Source: the human T2T-CHM13v2.0 reference genome, Homo sapiens. From it: DNA of 64,000 nucleotides. The DNA is taken from NCBI RefSeq assembly GCF_009914755.1, contig NC_060938.1. One strand, 5' to 3'. The position numbers were made by a program, and so were the translations under genes. Positions 1,606 to 23,396 of this stretch are shown here, in pieces (positions within the stretch are counted from its first letter, which is position 1; each line of letters opens with the position of its first letter). The notes under the pieces were generated by a model that was not told the origin of the DNA, searched no databases, and saw only the letters and a list, made by a program, of their open reading frames with translations.

Positions 1606-4600
1606 GTATGTCCTGGGGCTTCCTGGGCAGCCTTGTGGGCAGGGCCCCATGGCCCCGGCTGTGGGCCCCTGGGGACCTATGGGCCGTTCTTGGGGGACCT
1701 CGGGCATGCTTGCTGCTGAGACGAGTGGATGGGGAGCTGCTCCGACCACAGCTGCTGAGCCGCTCACAGCCTGCCGGCCTCTCGGGCCCCATGCCCGATG
1801 TTGGGGGGCATCTCATCCTCGGGGGAGCACTGCCAAGGAGGGGCTCTGTGGCCAGGACCCTGCCTGAGTTGGAGCCTGGTCCCTGCCTCTTCTGAGCTGT
1901 GCAATCTTGGGCAAATCAACTAACCTCTCTGTGCCTCAGTTTCCTCCCGTCAGCTGGGCTCTTCCTCATAGGAGTCGCTGTGACTGCAGCAAGAAAATGT
2001 CTGTGAAGCCTGGAGAATGTGGCCCGGAGTGGGGCAGCTCAGCTGTGGACATTGGGGGCTGCCCGGGGGAGGCGCAGGCTGGGGCCACGGAGAGGACAAG
2101 GCTGGCCTTCAGGCAGCACAAGGGGAGGGGCAGCAGGGCTTGAGCGGGTGCCCACGGTGCCAGCCGGGCTTGTGGTTGGCAGGTCCAGCTCCACCAGGAG
2201 CATCCCACATTGGGGGACCATGTCTGACATCACTTGGTTGCTTTCCCAGGCCCCGAGCTCGGGGTGCCTGGTTTCTCTGCTCTCCCCCCTGCTGATCCCC
2301 ACCACTGCCAGAATGCCAGGCCTGAGGCCCTGCAGGCACCAGGTCCTTGCCGACTGGTGGTGTGGATGGGGTGGGCCAGGCAGAGGGAACAGGAGAGCAG
2401 AGGTGGGGAGGGGGAGTTGGCATGGAGGGGCGTGGTGTGGGAGCCTCCACTGGGCCCTTCCCGGCAGGGCCTTTGGTCCTGGGACCCGTGGCAGAGCCTC
2501 CTCTCATCCTGATGGTGTAAGGATGCGGATTACAGGATGTAATTGCCATAATGCCTGGTAATGGCAGGCCCAGCCGCGGGTCAGTGTCCCATTAGCAGCC
2601 CCACGCGGGTGCTGATAAGCTTGAACATGCATCACACCCAGCGGCCAGAGACGAGGGTGTCTTATCAGCGCCGGCCCTGGGGACCGTGTGGTCTGATTGC
2701 AGAGTGACGGGGCATATGATTAGGGCATTGTCGCACGCCGTGTGCCGGGCTGAGGGCTGATGAGCACACCATCGCGTTGGAGCACAGCCAGACCGCGCAC
2801 GTGACCAGTGTGGCCTCAGCGCCACCCCAATTAGGTGCCGAGAGCACGGCTGGCTGGGACCCTGGTGGGAGCAGATGGGGGTCTTGCCCATCCTGCTCTG
2901 GGGTCCCCCGTGTGTGGGACAGCCCACCCCGTCACAACCGGCCTAGTCCTGAATTAAAGGGCCTGTGCGGCTGTTCTGGGCACAGCCCTGTGGCCGTGCT
3001 CCTTTGGGTCCTGTTTGGCAGGAGGATTTGAAACGTGGAGACTTCCAGAAAAGAAAGAATAGCTCCAGTGCTCAGAGCTCCCCCCGTCCCTGATGCTAAG
3101 CCCCCTGGTGCCAAGGAGGGTTCCTGACACTGGGAAGTAAGGGTAGGGTGTCGGCCCCCAGGCCGGTGCGTTGGTGACCTGGAGCCCAGCAGAGCGGCCC
3201 TGGCTGCCTTTTGTTTGGGAGCCGAGGCCGGTGCCGCTTGCCAGCCGCGCTGCCTGCTGACCTTGGGAAGTTACCATAGAAACCAGCGCATCGGGCTGGG
3301 GACCCAGAGGCGGTTCTCCCAAGGCGGGGGCGCTGCCGGCTGCCATTACTTCCAGCCTGTTAGGCACCCTGGGTCTCAGCGGCTTCTGCGAGGCCACTGC
3401 AGGTGGCAGGTCGTGGTTCAGGTTGTGGCGGGGGACATCCTGGCAGGTGGGCCCTGTCGGTGGATGCCTGACGTGGGCTGGGGTCGGTGGTGGGTGACCT
3501 CCTCTGTGGGGCTGCAGTACCCTGAACCCTCAGGGGTGAGATCAGAGGGGGTGTCCACTCCTGGGTTTTGTGGGTGTGGGGCTGTGGCTCTGAGTGGGGA
3601 CGAGTCCACCAGGAGACAGTGGAGCTTCAGCCCCCGCCCCAGGGGTCTTGGGCACGTGCTGAGGGTACCTTCTGTGCTCCCACCTCCACCCTCGAAGAGG
3701 ACCTGGGAGGGAGTGGCACTGACCCCAGCCCCTGCTCTGCCCTTGGGAAGTTTCCAGTCTGGAGGGACCGAGGGGCACCTCTGTGGAGGCAGCCTTAGAT
3801 GGCAGCACGGGACCCGTGCAGCAGTCAGGGCAGAGTGGCCTCTCAGGGAGCGGGCTTTGAGGGTTGAGTAGGAGTCTGGCAGGCAGCATTGCCAAGTGGA
3901 GACGGAATGGGGTGGAGGTCAGGAGTTTGAGTTTTTGAATCCCGTGGGCCTGGGGAGTCTCAGCTCTGCTGCTGCCCACAAGCACCCCCCAGCCGGATTA
4001 GGGCACCAGCCTCAGGCTGCCCCCTGATCCTTTCAGTGGCCTCTGGGCTCCTTATGTCCACACAGGGAAGCTGGGATGTGGAGTGATCCCATGGGTGCCC
4101 GGGTACCCGAGTTTCGTTAATGCTAACAGGGGCATAGATAGAGCAGGGGCTGAGCCCCATGCCCTCACCCCCTGGGTGGGGCCTGGGGAAGCTGCAGGGA
4201 TTGAGGCAGCGCAGCTGTGACAGAGCTTGGCATGCTGGCCCAGCAAGTGTTCGGGAGGGTGGGGCGCGTGGGCCGGGTGGCCCCGGGGTTAGGAGTTCTC
4301 CGAAGGCTCTGGTGACCCCCAGAGTTAGGAGTTCCCTGAAGGTTCTGGCAACTCTGATGACGCTGTCTGAGGCCCCGCTGGTTTGTGCCGGTGCTGGGAG
4401 CCTCTGCAGTGCCTCCTCTGAGGTACTTCCGTCATCATACTCTCACCTGCTCGCTGCCATGCTGGTATGGGGGTCCCCTCCAAGACCCCAAATCAAATGT
4501 CTTTGAGAAAACTGCTAAGGGAGATTGCTTCCATTGGGTGGGGAGCACCTCATGGCACTTGCAGGTACCCAGGCCCCCCACTCCCCACCCCACTGTGGCC

Positions 4601-10600: not shown

Positions 10601-13600
10601 TGCCTGCTCAGGGCCGCCTCCAAGACCAAGGACAACCCTGGCAGCATCGGGAAGGTAGACGCAGCCCCGAGTTCGGGGCCCTGGGTGGGGAGGCCAGAGG
10701 CGTCTGAGAAGACGCAGGAGGGGTGAGGGAGTGGAGGGGCTGCCACTTCCTTCTCTGGGTTGGATAAGGGTGGTCAGTGGGGTGCCATGGGGAGACTGAG
10801 GCCCAGGTGGCAGCAGGGAGCCTGGGAGCCTGTGCTGGGCTGGGACTGCCGGGATGGGAGGGGAGTGGCGTGTCCTAGGGGTCCCAGGGGCATGTACTAG
10901 GTTCAGCGTGGGGCGGGACAGCCAGGTCACGGGGCTCCCAGGGACTAAGGTTGGGTTTGATCCAGGGAAGCCCCTTGCGTAGGCTCCACTGAGACGCAGC
11001 CCTGAGGGGGCTGGGGGCAGGAGGGGACTCTCTGCTCTCCAGAGTCACCGTGTGCAGGCGGGCCCCTGCCATGGGAAAGCGGGATGCGTGATGGGTTGAT
11101 TCTGGCGCCGCGCTCCACATGGGAAGACTGCCGCCTGTGGAGGGCACAGGGCCTCCATCAGTGATGGGACAGGCTGGCTCCTGGCTGTCCCTGGAGCTCT
11201 GAGCCTGGGGCCTGTGGCTTGCTGGTTGTGCCATCCGAGTCTCGGAGAAATACCTGCCCTGGCTGGACGTGGCCCTGCCTTGTGCTGGGAGCTGGCAGTG
11301 CCTGGTTCGTGGGCCCATTGAGTCAGGTGGGCTCTTTGTGCCCATGGAGGGTGGGAAGCCAGTCACACAGCTCTGTGTGTGCCCCCGGTGGCTTTTTCCT
11401 GCCCCTCGGCCTGCTCTGCAGCCAGCCCCCTCCCGCCCAGCACCCCGAAAGCACTGCCTGGTGCCTCCAGGCCCGGGAGGCTCTGTGCCCCACATGGGCC
11501 ATCAGGCTCCGTGCCCCTCTGGACTTGGACCACGATTCCCAGGGGTTCAGCTCTCCAGGGGACAAGGTCTGGAGGGGACGCTGTGCCCACGTTGGAGACC
11601 CCCTGGCAGAAGGCCCCTGTCCCTGGGCCTGGGGGTGCCACAGGCCTCTCCCACTGCCCTAGCTGTACTGGGTCTAGGGTGCCAGGAGCACCCCTCGCAG
11701 TCCTGGTGAGAGCCTGCTTGACCTTTACAGCTCTGTAGTCCTGGAGGGGCCTCCTGGGCAGCCACACCTTGGGATTTTGTTAGAGCTCGGGAGGTGCCAG
11801 GCTCGTGGGAGGGTTTGGAACATGCTGGCTACGGGGAAGGGCTGTAAGTGACTGTGTGTCTGGCCACGCCCTCAGTGGTGCAGTTGCTGGGGGCTGTGCC
11901 CCCTGCCCGCCCGGTGATGTAGCGAGCATTGTACTTGCAGCCCCTGGAACGCTAATTTCGTGACTTGAGCCCTCCAACCTCTCCAGGGCAGCCCTGGCCT
12001 GAATTGACGGTGGCTACTGGTCTGGGGCAGTGGTGGGTCCCTAGGGAGGGCCGCCGTGGGGCATAGGGGCTCTGGGGCGGCCTGTGGGGCAGACCTGACA
12101 GCTCTTACCATCTTCATAGGCCATGGCGGGTCCGGGTGGGGGCATCAGGCAGTTGGCACCTTGGAGCTGCATGGGTGTCCAGAGGGGAGTGTGTGGTGAG
12201 ACCACCAGGAGCCTCCCGATCTCCCTGACTCTGGGTCTCCACCCCGAGCACCCCACCAGTTGCCAGGGTTTGAATGGATCGCTTGTCCCTCTGGGCACTG
12301 GTTTCCGTTTGTGGTAAGGAGGGCTTGGCGGGCATCTGGCATCTCTGTCCTCCGGAGGCGACATTCTGCATCCAAGGCCCGGGGGCAGGGGAAGCTGTGT
12401 GGCCTGGATCAGGGACTTGTCATTGCTCCGCTGGGGTTGGGGCAAGGCCCCTGCCTGGGGTGAGGCGGGGGTGGTGGGTGAAGCAGAGTTGGGGGACTAG
12501 GCCGGGGGTCACTGCCTCCCTGGAAATCTCTTTGCCTAGCACTGCTGGGGGTCTGCGGGGAACAAGGGGGCTCCTGATCTCTGTGCGTGTGCCCGGCACG
12601 GGCTGTTTCTCCACAGTCCCCTGGGATGCGAGGCCAGTGGCATCAGCCTGTGTTTTGGGCCCAGGCCTGGCTGGCTGGGGCACCCTGGGTCCTCCCCACC
12701 CTCAACAGTCTCCTTGAGACAGGGCAGGTGGGTGCTGGGGCCAGGCTGCCGCTGCCCTGGCCACGTGGGCTGCAGAGCTGTGCCGAGAGCTCAGGAGGAC
12801 GCCGAGGTCAGGTGTGGGCGGTGGTGGGCAGGCAGCATCCAGGTTCCCCGCCCAGCCTGGGATCGGGGCCCTGGCTCTGGCCTGGGCCTGGCACTCAGCC
12901 TGTTTGTGCCATCCAGTTGGGGCGGGGGGCAGAGGAGTCAGCAGCTCCTTCAGGAGCCCGCAACACTTTTCCCAGCGCCCCGCGTTTCTTAGGGGACAGC
13001 TTCTGCCCCACTTCCTCCTGGGGGCAGCCTTGGCCGGGCTTCTCCCTTCTCTCCATGGCAGTCACACCCCCACCCTGCTCCGGAGTGCTCAGTGCTTCCC
13101 CAGCAACAAGGAGCCCTGGGTCACCAGCCTTCCAGCCCCTCCACCCTGCACACCCCCCAGCTCCCCGGGTGTTATTAGCACTAATGTCACATAGTCAGAA
13201 ATGCCGCCTGAAAGGCGTTTAATATTGTCACAGAAAAGAAGTTAGATTACGTTCAATTTCTGACATTAATGTGCTACTTAAGATAATTCATCACAGTGTG
13301 GTATAAAAAAGACATCCCTGTCTGGGTGGGTGCTGAGCAGCGCCCTTCCCCCTCCCTGCCTGGGCTACCTCTTCAGAGCTGGAAGCCCTTTTTTAATGCA
13401 AAATGTGTTTTTTCTCTCCCAGGCAGCTATTCCGTGGGGCTTTGTAATATCTGAACATTTAGGGGAGAGGCTTGCTGTGCCTTTTCCTGCAAAGACCCTG
13501 TCATTTCCCTGCAGTAATGACAGGGTTCTCTTTCGGCAGACAATGGCCTGCGCTGGGACCAGGGCAGTGTGGGGCAGGCTAGATGGGCGGTGCCCCCACT

Positions 13601-19600: not shown

Positions 19601-22600
19601 GTCCCGGCCGGTCAGCATCATCAGCAGCATCAATGATGAGTTTGACGCCTACACCTCTCAGGCCCCTGAGGGGGGGCCCCTGGAGGGGGCGGCCTGGGCC
19701 GGCAGCAGTCACGGCTCCTCCATCAGCTCCTGGCTCAGCGAGGTCAGCGTCTGCACTGCCGACAGCCGTGACCCCACGCCGCAGCCCCGCTTCAGCCCCG
19801 ACTCGCTGGCAGGGCTTGACCCTGGGGGCCCCCCTGCCCTGGATGGTTCCCTGGGGGATGGAAGCTCTGGGTTCCTGGGGCCAGACAGACCTGACAGTCC
19901 TGGGCCAACCTGGGGTCCGTGCCCTGGGGAAGTGGCTGCAGTGGCCCCATCCCGACCCGGCAGGGAGCCCCAGGCCGGGCCCTCGCGGTGGGCATCCGCA
20001 GCCCAGACCATCCACTCCAGCCTCCCCCGGAAACCGAGGACTGCCTCTGCCACCACCCGTGTGGGCTGTGCTCGCCTGGGCCAGAGCCCACCTGGCCGTG
20101 GAGGCCTGTTTGAGGACCCATGGCTGCTCCGGGTAGGGGAGTGTGATACCCAGGCAGCTTCTGCTGGCAGGGCCCCCAGCCCCACACTTGGCTCCCCCCG
20201 GCTGCCTGAGGCCCAGGTGATGCTAGCCTGTGCCCAGAGAGTGGTGGACGGGTGTGAGGTGGCAGCCAGGGCGGCCCGCAGGCCAGAGGCTGTGGCTCGG
20301 ATCCCACCGCTGCGGAGGGGTGCCACCACGCTGGGTGTGACAACGCCAGCTGTGTCCTGGGGAGATGCTCCCACGGAGGTGGTGGCCTGCTCGGGGAGCC
20401 TGAAGGCCTCCCCCACCAGCAAGAAGGGTCTGGCTCCCAAGGCGGGCTTCCTCCCGAGGCCCAGTGGGGCGGCCCCCCCGGCCCCACCCACGCGGAAGTC
20501 CAGCCTGGAGCAGAGGAGCAGCCCGGCCTCGGCCCCTCCGCATGCTGTGAACCCGGCGCGGGTCGGGGCTGCTGCTGTCCTTCGAGGGGAGGAGGAGCCC
20601 AGACCCAGCAGCCGGGCTGACCACTCTGTCCCCAGGGCCACGTCCAGCCTGAAGGCCCGGGCCAGCAAGGTAGAAGCGGCACACCGTCTTGCCGGACACG
20701 CGTCTCTGGAGCGGTACGAAGGCCTGGCGCACAGCAGCAGCAAGGGCCGGGAAGCCCCTGGGCGGCCTCCCCGGGCTGTACCCAAGCTGGGTGTGCCACC
20801 CTCCAGCCCCACACACGGTCCAGCTCCCGCCTGTAGGAGCGGCGCAGCCAAGGCTGTGGGGGCCCCCAAGCCCCCTGTTGGTGGAGGCAAGGGCCGTGGC
20901 CTAGTGGCTGGTGGGTCGCGGGCTCTGGGGCCTTCGGTGAAGCTGTCTACGGCCTCTGTGACGGGCAGGAGCCCTGGCGGCCCTGTGGCCGGTCCCAGAG
21001 CAGCCCCACGGGCCGGGCCCAGTGTCGGGGCGAAGGCTGGCCGGGGTACCGTCATGGGCACAAAGCAGGCGCTCCGGGCTGCTCACAGCCGCGTCCATGA
21101 GCTGTCAGCCAGTGGAGCCCCGGGCCGAGGTGGCTCCTCGTGGGGCTCGGCGGACTCAGACAGCGGCCATGACAGCGGCGTGAACGTGGGGGAGGAGCGG
21201 CCACCCACGGGCCCGGCCCTGCCCTCCCCCTACAGCAAGGTGACCGCCCCACGGCGGCCCCAGCGCTACAGCAGCGGCCATGGCAGCGACAACAGCAGCG
21301 TGCTGAGTGGAGAGCTGCCGCCCGCCATGGGCCGCACCGCCCTTTTCCACCACAGCGGTGGCAGCAGTGGCTATGAGAGCCTGCGGCGCGACAGCGAGGC
21401 CACCGGCAGCGCCTCCTCCGCCCCTGACTCCATGAGCGAGAGTGGGGCTGCCTCCCCAGGCGCCCGCACCCGCAGCCTCAAGTCCCCCAAGAAGAGGGCC
21501 ACAGGTGGGTGCAGAGGTGCACAGCCCTCTACAGTTTACGGGCTTTCTGTGTGTAGATGTGCACAGCCCTCTACAGTTTACAGGGCCAGGAGATGCTGGA
21601 CAGATGGGCACAGCCTTCAAGGTCCCAGACCCACACAGCCGTGGACGGTTTACAGACTCGCCTGGGGCTTTTTGTGTGTGGAGGTGCACAGCCCTCTGCA
21701 GTTTATAAACCCCCTGTACTTGCCCTTCTCTGGCCCCACCCTGCCCTGGGGGGCTGATCCTGGTCTGTGTCTGGGTGAGCACAAGGGCAGCCCTGCACAG
21801 GTCGCCAGGCTGGGGCACTGGACTCGGGTTTGGGTCCCGGGCCTCGTGCCTCCCTGGCGAGTGTCGAGCTGCCTGGAAGGCCCCCGCCAGGGCTGCCCCA
21901 AGGGACAGAACTGCTCAGGTCATGGCAGGGAAAGTGGGAGGCCCTGGTGGTGGTGGGGGCGCCCTTGAGAGCTGTGGGCCTGGCTTGGGGTCGGCTTCCT
22001 CCCTGCCCTGGGCAGAGCGCCAGCCTGAGGATTCCTGGACTGGACCCCGAAGGCCTCCCTGTCAGGACTCGGGCCGGCTCCGCAGCGTCCCCGCAGGGGC
22101 TGTGCTTGGGCTGGGCCCCGCCTCTGTTCACCCTGTGCCCGGCTCTCCGTTCCAGGTCTGCAGCGGCGGCGCCTGATTCCCGCCCCACTGCCCGACACCA
22201 CTGCCCTGGGCCGTAAGCCCAGCCTCCCCGGGCAGTGGGTGGACCTGCCCCCGCCCCTGGCTGGCTCCCTGAAGGAGCCGTTCGAGATCAAGGTGTACGA
22301 GATCGATGACGTGGAGCGCCTTCAGCGGCCCCGCCCCACCCCGAGGGAGGCCCCCACCCAGGTAGGGCCTTTGGTGGGCTGGGGTCTATGACCCCTGGTG
22401 GGGAGCCTGCCGCGGATGGCAGAGTGAGCCATTTGATGGGCTCGCCAGGCCTCTGGGGGTGTGGCTGGGCAGCCCCTGACCTCACTTTCTGTCCACGTTC
22501 CGCCCAGGACGCAAAGGTAGGAGCGGCCCTGCCCAGCCCAAGCCTGTTGCAGCTCCGACACTCCCCTTGGGCAGTGGGTGGGTGGCTGGGGGGTCCTGAG

Positions 22601-23396
22601 GCCACTGCTGCTGTCCGCTGGAATTCTCCCCTGTCGTGGGGAGGGTGGTCCTAGAGCCGAGCCAGGACCCAGACGGGCATGGGTGGGCTGCCCCAGGTCC
22701 GCCCCCTGCCCGCCCTTGGAGCCCCACTGTGTGCCTGCCAAGGCCTGGCAGGTGAAGGGAGGCGGGGGCCACATCAGGGCTGCTTGGGGGTCTCTGGGGA
22801 GAGGGTCCCATGCCTGAGCCCCCGCCCGCCCTGCCTCCCAGGGTCTGGCGTGCGTCAGTACAAGGCTGCGGCTGGCGGAGCGCAGGCAGCAGCGGCTGCG
22901 GGAGGTGCAGGCCAAGCACAAGCACCTGTGTGAGGAGCTGGCCGAGACCCAGGGCCGGCTGATGCTGGAGCCTGGCCGCTGGCTGGAGCAGTGTGAGTCC
23001 CGCCCGCCCACGGACCCAGCCCGGCCCACCGTGTGCCCTGACAGCTGCCCTCCCCTCCCAGAGCCCTGTTGCTCTCCTGTACCTCGTGGTGGGAAGGCTG
23101 GAAGGCAGGGTCGGCCGGGCCAAGATGCCTTTCCTGGGGCCTCTGGGGGGCCAGGTGGCTGCCCCCAGCCTCGGGCCTGACGCAGGTGCCCCTCCCCTCT
23201 CCTCCCCTCCCCAGTTGAGGTGGACCCGGAGCTGGAGCCCGAGTCGGCCGAGTACCTGGCGGCCCTGGAGCGAGCCACGGCGGCCCTGGAGCAGTGCGTG
23301 AACCTGTGCAAGGCGCACGTCATGATGGTCACCTGCTTCGACATCAGCGTTGCAGCCAGTGCTGCCATCCCGGGGCCGCAGGAGGTGGACGTCTGA
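1418..23396 (+). CDS. KIF26A: Kinesin-like protein KIF26A, spliced CDS, 5'-partial (upstream exons lie outside the window): join(1418..1605,10465..10654,15329..15541,16181..16274,16583..16845,16936..17119,17312..17474,17754..17916,18588..21504,22156..22361,22842..22992,23215..23396)
   Basis: All junctions read as AG|exon|GT with matching phases; summed length 4914 nt = 1637 codons + TGA. Translation gives a divergent kinesin motor (VKVMLRI...FAFDAVF...GKSYTMIG...[17 protein letters not shown]), a long Ser/Pro/Gly-rich region and a C-terminal coiled coil ending PQEVDV*, which I recognise as KIF26A. Exon numbering is from recalled gene structure. Confidence 0.97.
1885..2010 (+). mobile_element. 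MIR SINE fragment
   Basis: ctgtgcaatcttgggcaaatcaactaacctctctgtgcctcagtttcctc matches the MIR core. Confidence 0.7.
7171..7493. repeat. Inverted repeat: 84-bp arms (7171-7254 and 7410-7493), 81/84 identity, 155-bp spacer
   Basis: Manual reverse-complement alignment; also visible as mirrored peptides in ORFs 6936..7373, 7180..7725 and 7407..7682. Confidence 0.97.
8322..9460 (+). repeat. Low-complexity (TG)/(TC)/TGCATG repeat tract, ~1.1 kb
   Basis: Direct reading; source of the Cys/Val and His/Thr pseudo-ORFs. Confidence 0.95.
9900..10070 (-). mobile_element. MIR SINE fragment
   Basis: cccactttggagatgtagaaactgaggca...gtgcccaggtcacagct. Confidence 0.65.
10465..10654 (+). CDS. KIF26A: KIF26A coding exon (exon 5), [13 protein letters not shown]...DNPGSIGK
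   Basis: Acceptor cctctcctccccag|G, donor AAG|gtagac; 190 nt, phase 2 to 0. Confidence 0.95.
13170..14200. promoter_or_regulatory. Candidate intronic enhancer (AT-rich, homeodomain-motif-rich island in intron 5)
   Basis: Clear drop in GC without repeat hallmarks; many TAAT/ATTA and TGACA/TGTCA motifs. Confidence 0.45.
15329..15541 (+). CDS. KIF26A: KIF26A exon 6, start of motor domain (VKVMLRI...[13 protein letters not shown])
   Basis: tgccccag|GTG ... CAG|gtacgg; 213 nt; kinesin beta1 and FxFDxVF motifs. Confidence 0.96.
16181..16274 (+). CDS. KIF26A: KIF26A exon 7 ([32 protein letters not shown]), first half of P-loop
   Basis: gcccccctag|GCC ... CTGG|gtaagc; 94 nt; not captured in the ORF track. 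Confidence 0.95.
16583..16845 (+). CDS. KIF26A: KIF26A exon 8 (KSYTMIG...REDPVCGAQ)
   Basis: ccccag|GC ... CAG|gtgcgc; 263 nt. Confidence 0.95.
16936..17119 (+). CDS. KIF26A: KIF26A exon 9 ([10 protein letters not shown]...[24 protein letters not shown])
   Basis: tttcctgcag|CTC ... GGAA|gtaggt; 184 nt; switch-I region. Confidence 0.93.
17312..17474 (+). CDS. KIF26A: KIF26A exon 10 ([16 protein letters not shown]...HVPYR)
   Basis: ggttccag|TG ... TATCG|gtgagt; 163 nt; switch-II region and HVPYR. Confidence 0.95.
17754..17916 (+). CDS. KIF26A: KIF26A exon 11 ([12 protein letters not shown]...RRKKAK), end of motor domain
   Basis: cccgcag|G ... AAG|gtgctc; 163 nt. Confidence 0.95.
18588..21504 (+). 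CDS. KIF26A: KIF26A exon 12, 2917-nt exon encoding a low-complexity Ser/Pro/Gly/Ala-rich region
   Basis: cttttcttcccccag|TAC ... ACAG|gtgggt; same frame as ORF 18678..21968. Confidence 0.96.
21517..21706. repeat. Degenerate repeat (core gtgcacagccctctacagtttac at 21517, 21559, 21684; first two copies 42 bp apart) just inside intron 12
   Basis: Direct reading. Confidence 0.8.
22156..22361 (+). CDS. KIF26A: KIF26A exon 13 ([10 protein letters not shown]...[16 protein letters not shown]...EAPTQ)
   Basis: ccgttccag|GT ... CAG|gtaggg; 206 nt, ends in phase 0. Confidence 0.95.
22508..22516 (+). CDS. KIF26A: Candidate alternative 9-nt microexon GACGCAAAG (D-A-K) in KIF26A intron 13
   Basis: ctgac branch-like motif, pyrimidine tract, cag| acceptor and AAG|gtagga donor; symmetric phase 0. 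Confidence 0.55.
22842..22992 (+). CDS. KIF26A: KIF26A exon 14 ([25 protein letters not shown]...WLEQ), coiled coil
   Basis: ctgcctcccag|GGT ... CAGT|gtgagt; 151 nt. Confidence 0.95.
23215..23396 (+). CDS. KIF26A: KIF26A last exon, coding part ([14 protein letters not shown]...PGPQEVDV*)
   Basis: cctcccctccccag|TT; in-frame TGA at 23394-23396. Confidence 0.96.

What the first reader, a model, noticed from the sequence alone, without database searches (positions are those of the whole stretch)
22476..22522. Candidate 9-nt in-frame microexon (D-A-K) hidden in KIF26A intron 13
Seen: intron 13 contains a complete miniature exon: branch-like ctgac (22476-22480), pyrimidine-rich ctcactttctgtccacgttccgcc, CAG acceptor (22505-22507), GAC GCA AAG (22508-22516) and AAG|GTAGGA donor. 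Exon 13 ends and exon 14 starts in phase 0, so inclusion gives ...[17 protein letters not shown]... with no frameshift. The exon sum matches the recalled 1882-aa protein without these 9 nt. Established: 3-27 nt frame-preserving microexons are typically neuron-specific and often missed by aligners. Inference: a tissue-regulated three-residue insert at the start of the C-terminal coiled coil. Caveat: I see no UGC (SRRM4-type) motif just upstream, and I cannot tell whether it is already catalogued.
Basis: partly seen in the sequence, partly recalled or inferred. Interest (0 to 1): 0.8.

Follow-up and report, generated by a model that had tools for sequence, protein, structure and literature searches.

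The report
Truncated human remnant of ancient KIF26A microexon
The 9-base mini-exon in KIF26A intron 13 is what remains in human of a 21-base microexon found from fish to mammals; human DNA lacks that exon's original acceptor site, so it is either skipped or spliced in as a three-residue version, and no expression data were available to decide.

Summary
On splice-site strength alone it is weak evidence: an equally good in-frame pair appears in 17% of simulated introns.

Homology changes the picture. Of 99 placental KIF26A cluster representatives that span this junction, 65 carry a 6-9 residue insert exactly here, usually PSQDVEK. The four primates with it have six residues. Among 120 ray-finned fish and one snake, 91 carry (Q)PFQDV[DE]K.

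Intron-retaining fragments from other mammals read ...CPQ|PSQDVEK|VG.... Human reads ...[11 protein letters not shown]... in the same frame, and 8 of 8 fragments align there.

In human, the codon that supplies the acceptor AG in other species is CGT. The only AG left downstream of the conserved CTGAC is the former Gln codon, CAG. That leaves either a 9-nt exon or skipping.

Nothing here tests expression, ape sequence or neural specificity. My odds: about 0.55 mostly skipped, about 0.35 a real regulated 9-nt microexon.

The parts
22156..22361 (+). KIF26A exon 13, ending in phase 0 (...EAPTQ)
   Evidence: Hub annotation; phase computed; its 68-aa peptide retrieves KIF26A orthologues.
22476..22480 (+). 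Branch-point-like CTGAC, the only CTRAY match in intron 13
   Evidence: In the exon frame human reads P-D here. Among the exon-frame fragments checked for this, 6 read A-D or P-D and 2 read A-E or P-E, so the motif appears largely conserved (inferred from peptides, not DNA).
22481..22504 (+). Pyrimidine-rich tract. No AG lies anywhere from 22473 to 22505 (an AG-free zone).
   Evidence: the G of each AG is at 22472, 22507, 22516 only.
22496..22498 (+). CGT (Arg in the exon frame), at the position where other mammals have the Gln codon whose AG is the microexon's acceptor. The ancestral 3' splice site is absent in human.
   Evidence: CPQ|PSQDVEK in 8 fragments against human CPR|SAQDAK; the dinucleotide before 22499 is GT and before 22496 is CA.
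22499..22507 (+). TCC GCC CAG, the former first three codons of the ancestral exon (P-S-Q in other primates, S-A-Q in human). These are now upstream of the only usable AG. The CAG at 22505-22507 is the candidate acceptor.
22508..22516 (+).
   Evidence: The final K is invariant in the 38-sequence alignment A1.
22517..22522 (+). Donor GTAGGA after AAG. Orthologous fragments read V-G here, as human does.
   Evidence: recalled-matrix donor score 4.35.
22842..22992 (+). KIF26A exon 14, starting in phase 0 ([17 protein letters not shown]...). This is the long C-terminal helix.
   Evidence: AlphaFold2 model of orthologue fragment P0014: helix 225-266, with the insert at residues 220-226.

Best explanation
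The 9-nt unit is the 3' remainder of an ancient KIF26A cassette microexon. That exon is 21 nt in most vertebrates, with consensus P-[FS]-Q-D-V-[ED]-K, and it sits between the exons that are human exons 13 and 14. The four primates seen to carry it have an 18-nt form (PSQDTK and similar).

In the human sequence, the branch-like CTGAC, the pyrimidine tract, the Q-D-x-K codons and the AAG|GTAGGA donor are all still present. The acceptor is not: the codon that supplies the AG in other mammals (Gln, inferred to be CAG) is CGT in human, and the first two exon codons have also changed. The only AG between the branch site and the donor is the former Gln codon CAG at 22505-22507.

Inferred consequence: the human gene can no longer make the 18- or 21-nt exon. 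Either both halves of the intron are removed together, giving the annotated 1882-aa protein, or the spliceosome takes the first AG after the branch point and includes 9 nt (D-A-K). I judge skipping to be the main or only outcome in human, with the 9-nt form absent or minor.

What is shown: the orthology, the missing AG and the intact donor. What is inferred: which splicing outcome actually occurs.
For: Orthologues. 65 of 99 placental KIF26A cluster representatives that span the junction carry a 6-9 aa insert exactly between the exon-13 and exon-14 peptides (57 of 7 aa, 4 of 6 aa, 2 of 8, 2 of 9). They include elephant, manatee and armadillo. All four 6-aa forms are primates: Macaca PSQDTK, Callithrix PSQDGK, Microcebus PFQDTK, Nycticebus PLQDAQ. 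Of 120 further representatives, 91 carry (Q)PFQDV[DE]K or a close variant. These include teleosts, Lepisosteus, Amia and the snake Thamnophis. Three unnamed representatives also carry PFQDVEK.

Placement in the human intron. 8 of 8 intron-retaining fragments that read the intron in the exon frame align to the human open frame 22310-22651. They put CPQ|PSQDVEK|VG over human [11 protein letters not shown], with pairwise BLASTP E-values from 8e-8 to 6e-4.

Missing acceptor. There is no AG from 22473 to 22505.

Divergence. Human differs from any DNA that could encode AG plus the macaque peptide at 5 or more of 20 positions, 4 of them in the first 8. The proteins overall are 96.1% identical over 1637 aligned residues.

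Annotation. The selected human RefSeq transcript lacks the exon (hub table).
Against: No expression data of any kind could be examined, so 'mostly skipped' rests on the annotation and on the general difficulty of splicing a 9-nt exon (my inference).

The remaining sites score as well as those of the flanking constitutive exons. Both sub-introns are short (146 and 325 nt) and rich in G-runs, and the CAG is the first AG after the branch motif. All of this favours use of the 9-nt form.

The hub table shows only 1 of 2 RefSeq transcripts. I did not see the other.

The other species' exons are mostly computational gene models. No ape sequence was available, so the timing of the acceptor loss is known only as 'after the split from the macaque lineage', and that rests on a protein model.
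Confidence: 0.55

Rival explanations
1. One reading: the 9-nt D-A-K unit is a working, regulated human microexon. After the ancestral acceptor was lost, the internal Gln-codon AG took over, so the ancient exon was resized from 18 to 9 nt rather than lost. It is included at appreciable levels in some tissue.
For: CAG at 22505-22507 is the first AG downstream of the only CTRAY motif in the intron, 28 nt from its A, with an AG-free pyrimidine-rich tract between them. The shift is 9 nt, so the frame is kept. Acceptor and donor scores equal those of the flanking exons, and the candidate ranks 1 of 1749 in the gene's introns. The two residues retained, D and K, include the invariant K of the exon. 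A deeply conserved exon implies that flanking enhancers may still be present (inference).
Against: The exon is not in the selected RefSeq transcript. No paper links KIF26A with microexons (0 papers each). Only 3 of the ancestral 7 residues would remain. There is no UGC element upstream. Very short exons usually need dedicated activators (recalled). No expression data were seen.
Confidence: 0.35
2. A chance pseudo-exon: an AG and a GT that happen to lie 9 nt apart in a GC-rich intron, unrelated to any real exon.
For: An equal-or-better in-frame pair arises in 17% of simulated intron sets. Peptide similarity alone is ambiguous, because two other PSQD-like stretches lie in the same intron: 22657-22674 (PSQDPD) and 22406-22423 (PAADGR).
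Against: 8 of 8 exon-frame intron-retaining fragments align across this exact site together with its flanks. The donor, the K, the D and the Q coincide with the exon annotated in 65 of 99 placental representatives and 91 of 120 fish/snake representatives. The two other stretches fail: 22657-22674 has no GT after it and lies beyond the aligned flank, and 22406-22423 is only 44 nt from exon 13 and aligns to intron in the other species.
Confidence: 0.03

Closest known systems
The KIF26A cassette microexon annotated in other vertebrates (P-[FS]-Q-D-V-[ED]-K; 21 nt, 24 nt with a leading Q in many fish, 18 nt in four primates)
   Same: Same intron, same phase 0/0, same donor (K codon followed by GT, read as V-G), same Q-D-x-K core, similar flanking intron.
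   Different: Human has no AG at the exon's start, and its first two codons have changed. At most the last 9 nt can be spliced in.
Neural microexons of 3-27 nt that depend on SRRM4/SRRM3 (recalled from Irimia et al. 2014; abstracts of related papers seen in the listing)
   Same: Size class, frame preservation and deep vertebrate conservation of the ancestral exon.
   Different: No UGC between the pyrimidine tract and the AG in human. In the fragments that read L-S-T in the +1 frame, the Cys codon upstream works out as TGT rather than TGC (my back-inference). Tissue specificity is unknown.
Use of the next downstream AG after loss of an authentic 3' splice site (first-AG scanning after the branch point; recalled textbook mechanism, known from disease mutations)
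   Same: The authentic AG is gone, and the next AG is 9 nt downstream, in frame, preceded by C and followed by G.
   Different: Here this would be a fixed lineage change in a microexon rather than a patient mutation. Its actual use has not been demonstrated.

Membership tests
Orthologue of the vertebrate KIF26A cassette microexon | Lies between the exon ending ...[11 protein letters not shown]10 and the exon starting G-L-x-C/Y..., phase 0 on both sides | tested here: met
Orthologue of the vertebrate KIF26A cassette microexon | Flanking intron sequence is homologous to the flanks of the exon in other species | tested here: met
   8 of 8 exon-frame fragments align across the site (E 8e-8 to 6e-4). 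Further fragments show the same region in the other two frames (for example LSTALPGRGEG against human [12 protein letters not shown]).
Orthologue of the vertebrate KIF26A cassette microexon | AG acceptor immediately before the P/S codon that opens the exon | tested here: not met
   GT lies before 22499 and CA before 22496; human has Arg CGT where the others have Gln.
Orthologue of the vertebrate KIF26A cassette microexon | Lys codon followed by a GT donor | tested here: met
   K is invariant in alignment A1.
SRRM4-type neural microexon | Length 3-27 nt and frame-preserving | tested here: met
   9 nt, phase 0/0.
SRRM4-type neural microexon | UGC-containing element close upstream of the 3' splice site (feature recalled) | tested here: not met
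   no TGC between 22409 and 22529.
SRRM4-type neural microexon | Neural-specific inclusion | not testable with these tools
   No RNA-seq access. 0 papers for KIF26A with microexon or micro-exon. The 2 papers with Kif26a and Srrm4 are unrelated by title and abstract.
Expressed human exon | Spliced reads or transcripts that contain it | not testable with these tools
   No human-identical sequence appeared among the proteins listed (best 97% identity). A search with the human intronic open frame found nothing.

The most novel reading that the evidence does not exclude
An exon kept since before ray-finned fish and tetrapods split was resized on the lineage to human, from 21 nt (18 nt in primates) to 9 nt. 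Its acceptor was destroyed and the AG of its own Gln codon took over, giving KIF26A a D-A-K insert at the start of its C-terminal helix. This would be a lineage-specific splicing change in a gene whose loss causes brain malformation.
Probability: 0.3. Interest if true: 0.65.

Novelty: new member of a known kind. Interest (0 to 1): 0.5.

Why it matters
KIF26A loss-of-function causes congenital brain malformations (PMC10585591; abstract and search passages seen). A seven-residue microexon kept from fish to mammals at the start of the C-terminal helix is probably functional.

Human DNA lacks its acceptor. Either way, the human protein differs from that of other mammals at a conserved regulated position: it either lacks the segment entirely or carries a three-residue stub. 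This bears on using mouse models of KIF26A, on interpreting variants in intron 13, and on cataloguing lineage-specific loss or resizing of conserved microexons.

It also shows that a 'pseudo-exon' found by eye can be told apart from chance by comparing orthologous protein isoforms.

Tried and rejected
1. Splice-site statistics alone. The candidate is top-ranked in the gene's introns but expected by chance in 17% of simulations, so this is not decisive. The scoring matrices were recalled, not MaxEntScan.

2. Peptide matching alone. This is ambiguous: the site ranks 16 of 18,278 windows. Two other look-alikes lie in intron 13. The one at 22657-22674 (PSQDPD) has an AG before it but no GT after it. 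The one at 22406-22423 (PAADGR) has AG..GT but lies only 44 nt from exon 13. Both were rejected after the flank alignments.

3. A search with the human 114-aa open frame 22310-22651, to find ape or monkey versions of the intron: no hits.

4. Literature. KIF26A with microexon: 0 papers. KIF26A with micro-exon: 0. KIF26A with isoforms and cassette exon: 0. Kif26a with Srrm4: 2 unrelated papers. KIF26A with alternative splicing and exon: 21 papers, none about this exon by title or abstract. A general search on microexon loss in primates gave nothing specific.

5. PMC13495316 reports that SpliceAI, Pangolin and AlphaGenome predict an unannotated donor-acceptor pair in an intronic CpG island of KIF26A (passages seen). 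Intron 13 has CpG observed/expected 0.29. That paper's enrichment analysis used CpG islands at least 300 bp from any exon. So this is probably a different place, though the text gives no coordinates.

6. Supplements. The MicroExonator supplements (PMC7821500, 7 files held as text) contain no Kif26a. The tables of the human microexon catalogues (VastDB-type lists) were therefore not seen, and they may already list this event.

8. Pfam finds no domain at the site.

Full report
**Observation.**
- ctgac at 22476-22480
- a pyrimidine-rich tract
- cag at 22505-22507
- GAC GCA AAG at 22508-22516
- gtagga at 22517-22522

rebuilt the reading frame from the 12 annotated coding parts in the window (4914 nt, one terminal stop). 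The exon ending at 22361 ends in phase 0, and the exon starting at 22842 starts in phase 0. A 9-nt insert would therefore add D-A-K without a frameshift.

**Is it more than chance?** I scored all AG..GT pairs 3-27 nt apart in the 18,482 nt of KIF26A intron in the window. The acceptor and donor weight matrices came from memory, so the scores are only relative.
- The candidate (acceptor 4.73, donor 4.35) ranks 1 of 1749. It matches its neighbours: exon 13 scores 4.73/4.80 and exon 14 scores 4.92/2.79.
- In 300 second-order Markov simulations of the same intron set, an equal-or-better pair with a length divisible by three appeared 0.18 times per set, in 17% of sets.
- In 103.5 kb of control sequence from the window, 2 such pairs occur, 1 of them divisible by three.

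**Homology in placental mammals.** A search with the 68-aa exon-13 peptide among longer proteins gave 691 hits at E <= 0.001. The best 120 were listed, and all were placental KIF26A or fragments of it.
- 99 of the 120 span the exon-13/exon-14 junction. The 21 dropped were 20 fragments that run into the intron or stop short, plus P0004, which lacks the exon-14 region.
- 57 of the 99 have a 7-aa insert exactly at the junction: PSQDVEK in carnivores, horse, bats and pangolin; PSQSLEK or PSQNAEK in ruminants and whales; PSQDAEK or PSQDVEK in mice; PFSDMEK in elephant; PFPDVEK in manatee; PYRDVEE in armadillo.
- 4 have 6 aa, all of them primates: Macaca PSQDTK, Callithrix PSQDGK, Microcebus PFQDTK, Nycticebus PLQDAQ.
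- 2 have 8 aa and 2 have 9 aa.
- 29 have no insert, and 5 have odd 2-4 aa differences.
- Both forms occur within Sus scrofa (P0068 with, P0040 without) and Bos mutus (P0044 with, P0055 without). Genus-level pairs are also seen in Equus and Mustela. This fits a cassette exon, though these are largely computational models.

**Homology beyond mammals.** A whole-library search (90 hits) and a look at the junction showed PFQDVEK in three unnamed, more distant representatives (P0137, P0145, P0180) and QSIQDVDK in P0140.
- A last named search seeded with P0140, a catfish protein, listed 120 representatives: ray-finned fish including Lepisosteus and Amia, and the snake Thamnophis.
- 87 match an insert pattern, and 4 more (P0202, P0205, P0218, P0221) carry obvious variants that the pattern missed. 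That makes 91 of 120 with the insert. The 29 without it are mostly cyprinids.
- Two KIF26B-like representatives (P0166, P0177) have no insert.
- The exon therefore predates the split between ray-finned fish and tetrapods.

**Is the human 9 nt the same exon?** Peptide similarity alone does not settle this, because intron 13 holds two other PSQD-like stretches. Intron-retaining fragments do settle it.
- In several species the open frame of exon 13 runs on through the intron in the frame of the microexon. It reads ...TFPSCPQ|PSQDVEK|VGTG... (P0010, P0015, P0024, P0025, P0032; P0128, P0152, P0156).
- The human intron has a 114-codon open frame in the microexon's frame (22310-22651), reading ...[22 protein letters not shown]....
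- All 8 fragments align to it across this site, with pairwise E-values from 8e-8 to 6e-4.
- Other fragments show the same region in the other two frames.
- The two look-alike stretches fall in parts that align to plain intron or lie beyond the aligned flank, and they lack a usable donor or a long enough upstream intron.

**What has changed in human.**
- In the other species the codon just before the exon is Gln. Because the exon starts right after it, that codon must end in AG. This step is an inference.
- In human that codon is CGT, at 22496-22498.
- The next two codons read S-A instead of P-S. The Q, D and K codons and the donor remain. The V-E of most mammals is reduced to one residue, as in the other primates.
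- No AG exists between 22473 and 22505, so the ancestral exon cannot be spliced in.
- Against any DNA that could encode AG plus the macaque peptide, human differs at 5 or more of 20 positions, 4 of them in the first 8. The proteins overall are 96.1% identical over 1637 aligned residues.
- With a recalled neutral human-macaque divergence of about 6.5%, five or more differences in 20 has probability of about 0.008. This hints at relaxed constraint or a multi-base event, but it rests on a protein model and a recalled rate.

**How it most likely works.**
It appears to be conserved: 6 of the 8 exon-frame fragments read A-D or P-D there.
- The first AG after it is the former Gln codon CAG, 28 nt downstream of the branch A. 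It is preceded by a 74% pyrimidine tract (my count).
- If a spliceosome assembles on this branch site, it should cut at 22507|22508. The 9-nt shift keeps the frame.
- Both sub-introns are short (146 and 325 nt) and rich in G-runs, which should help intron-by-intron recognition (inference).
- Against this, a 9-nt exon is hard to define, there is no UGC element, and the selected RefSeq transcript skips it.
- I put about 0.55 on 'mostly or wholly skipped in human', about 0.35 on a real regulated 9-nt exon, and about 0.03 on pure chance.

**Protein context.**
- Pfam finds the kinesin motor and the N-terminal tri-helical domain, but nothing near the site.
- I ran an AlphaFold2 model of the 336-aa orthologue fragment P0014 with a 38-sequence alignment. 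Mean pLDDT is 57.2, low upstream and 83-93 in the helix.
- It places a 42-residue helix at 225-266, beginning at the last two residues of the insert (220-226).
- In that alignment the insert's K is invariant, and its P and Q are at least 90% conserved.
Coiled-coil pairing itself was not tested.

**What is known.** No paper in the searched library links KIF26A to a microexon. The exon is present in many species' public gene models, so annotation pipelines know it. I could not see VastDB-type tables, the second human RefSeq transcript, any ape sequence or any RNA-seq data. Supplement access closed, and the one supplement set searched (MicroExonator, mouse) has no Kif26a.

**Verdict.** The site is a true exon homologue, but it is a truncated one whose use in human is open.

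Noticed in passing
window 22406-22423: A second in-frame AG..GT mini-exon look-alike in intron 13: 18 nt, PAADGR, with donor AGA|GTGAGC. It lies only 44 nt from the exon-13 donor and has a purine-rich stretch before its AG. In other species it aligns to plain intron.
   Followed up: partly
window 22657-22674: The stretch PSQDPD, preceded by AG, matches the first four residues of the mammalian microexon but has no GT after it. It lies downstream of the region that aligns to the orthologous exon. Probably chance in GC-rich sequence.
   Followed up: partly
P0052, P0093 (rodent-like) at the exon-14 acceptor; P0279, P0290 against most other fish at the microexon acceptor: One-residue Q differences (EKQ|GPVC against EK|GPVC; E|QPFQDVDK against E|PFQDVDK) look like tandem NAGNAG acceptors in other species. 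The human exon-14 acceptor (cccag|GGT) shows no tandem AG.
   Followed up: no
window 2501-2900, and KIF26A introns generally: A CpG-island-like intronic stretch. PMC13495316 reports that SpliceAI, Pangolin and AlphaGenome predict an unannotated donor-acceptor pair in an intronic CpG island of KIF26A. The text gives no coordinates, so I cannot say whether it lies in this window.
   Followed up: no
window 12709-12727: The second-best AG..GT mini-exon in the gene's introns: 19 nt, not frame-preserving, donor CAG|GTGGGT. It lies inside the RefSeq enhancer 12456-13168.
   Followed up: no
P0166, P0177 (unnamed, KIF26B-like): The paralogue-like proteins share the [17 protein letters not shown] motif but show no insert at the equivalent junction. 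The microexon may therefore be specific to KIF26A.
   Followed up: no
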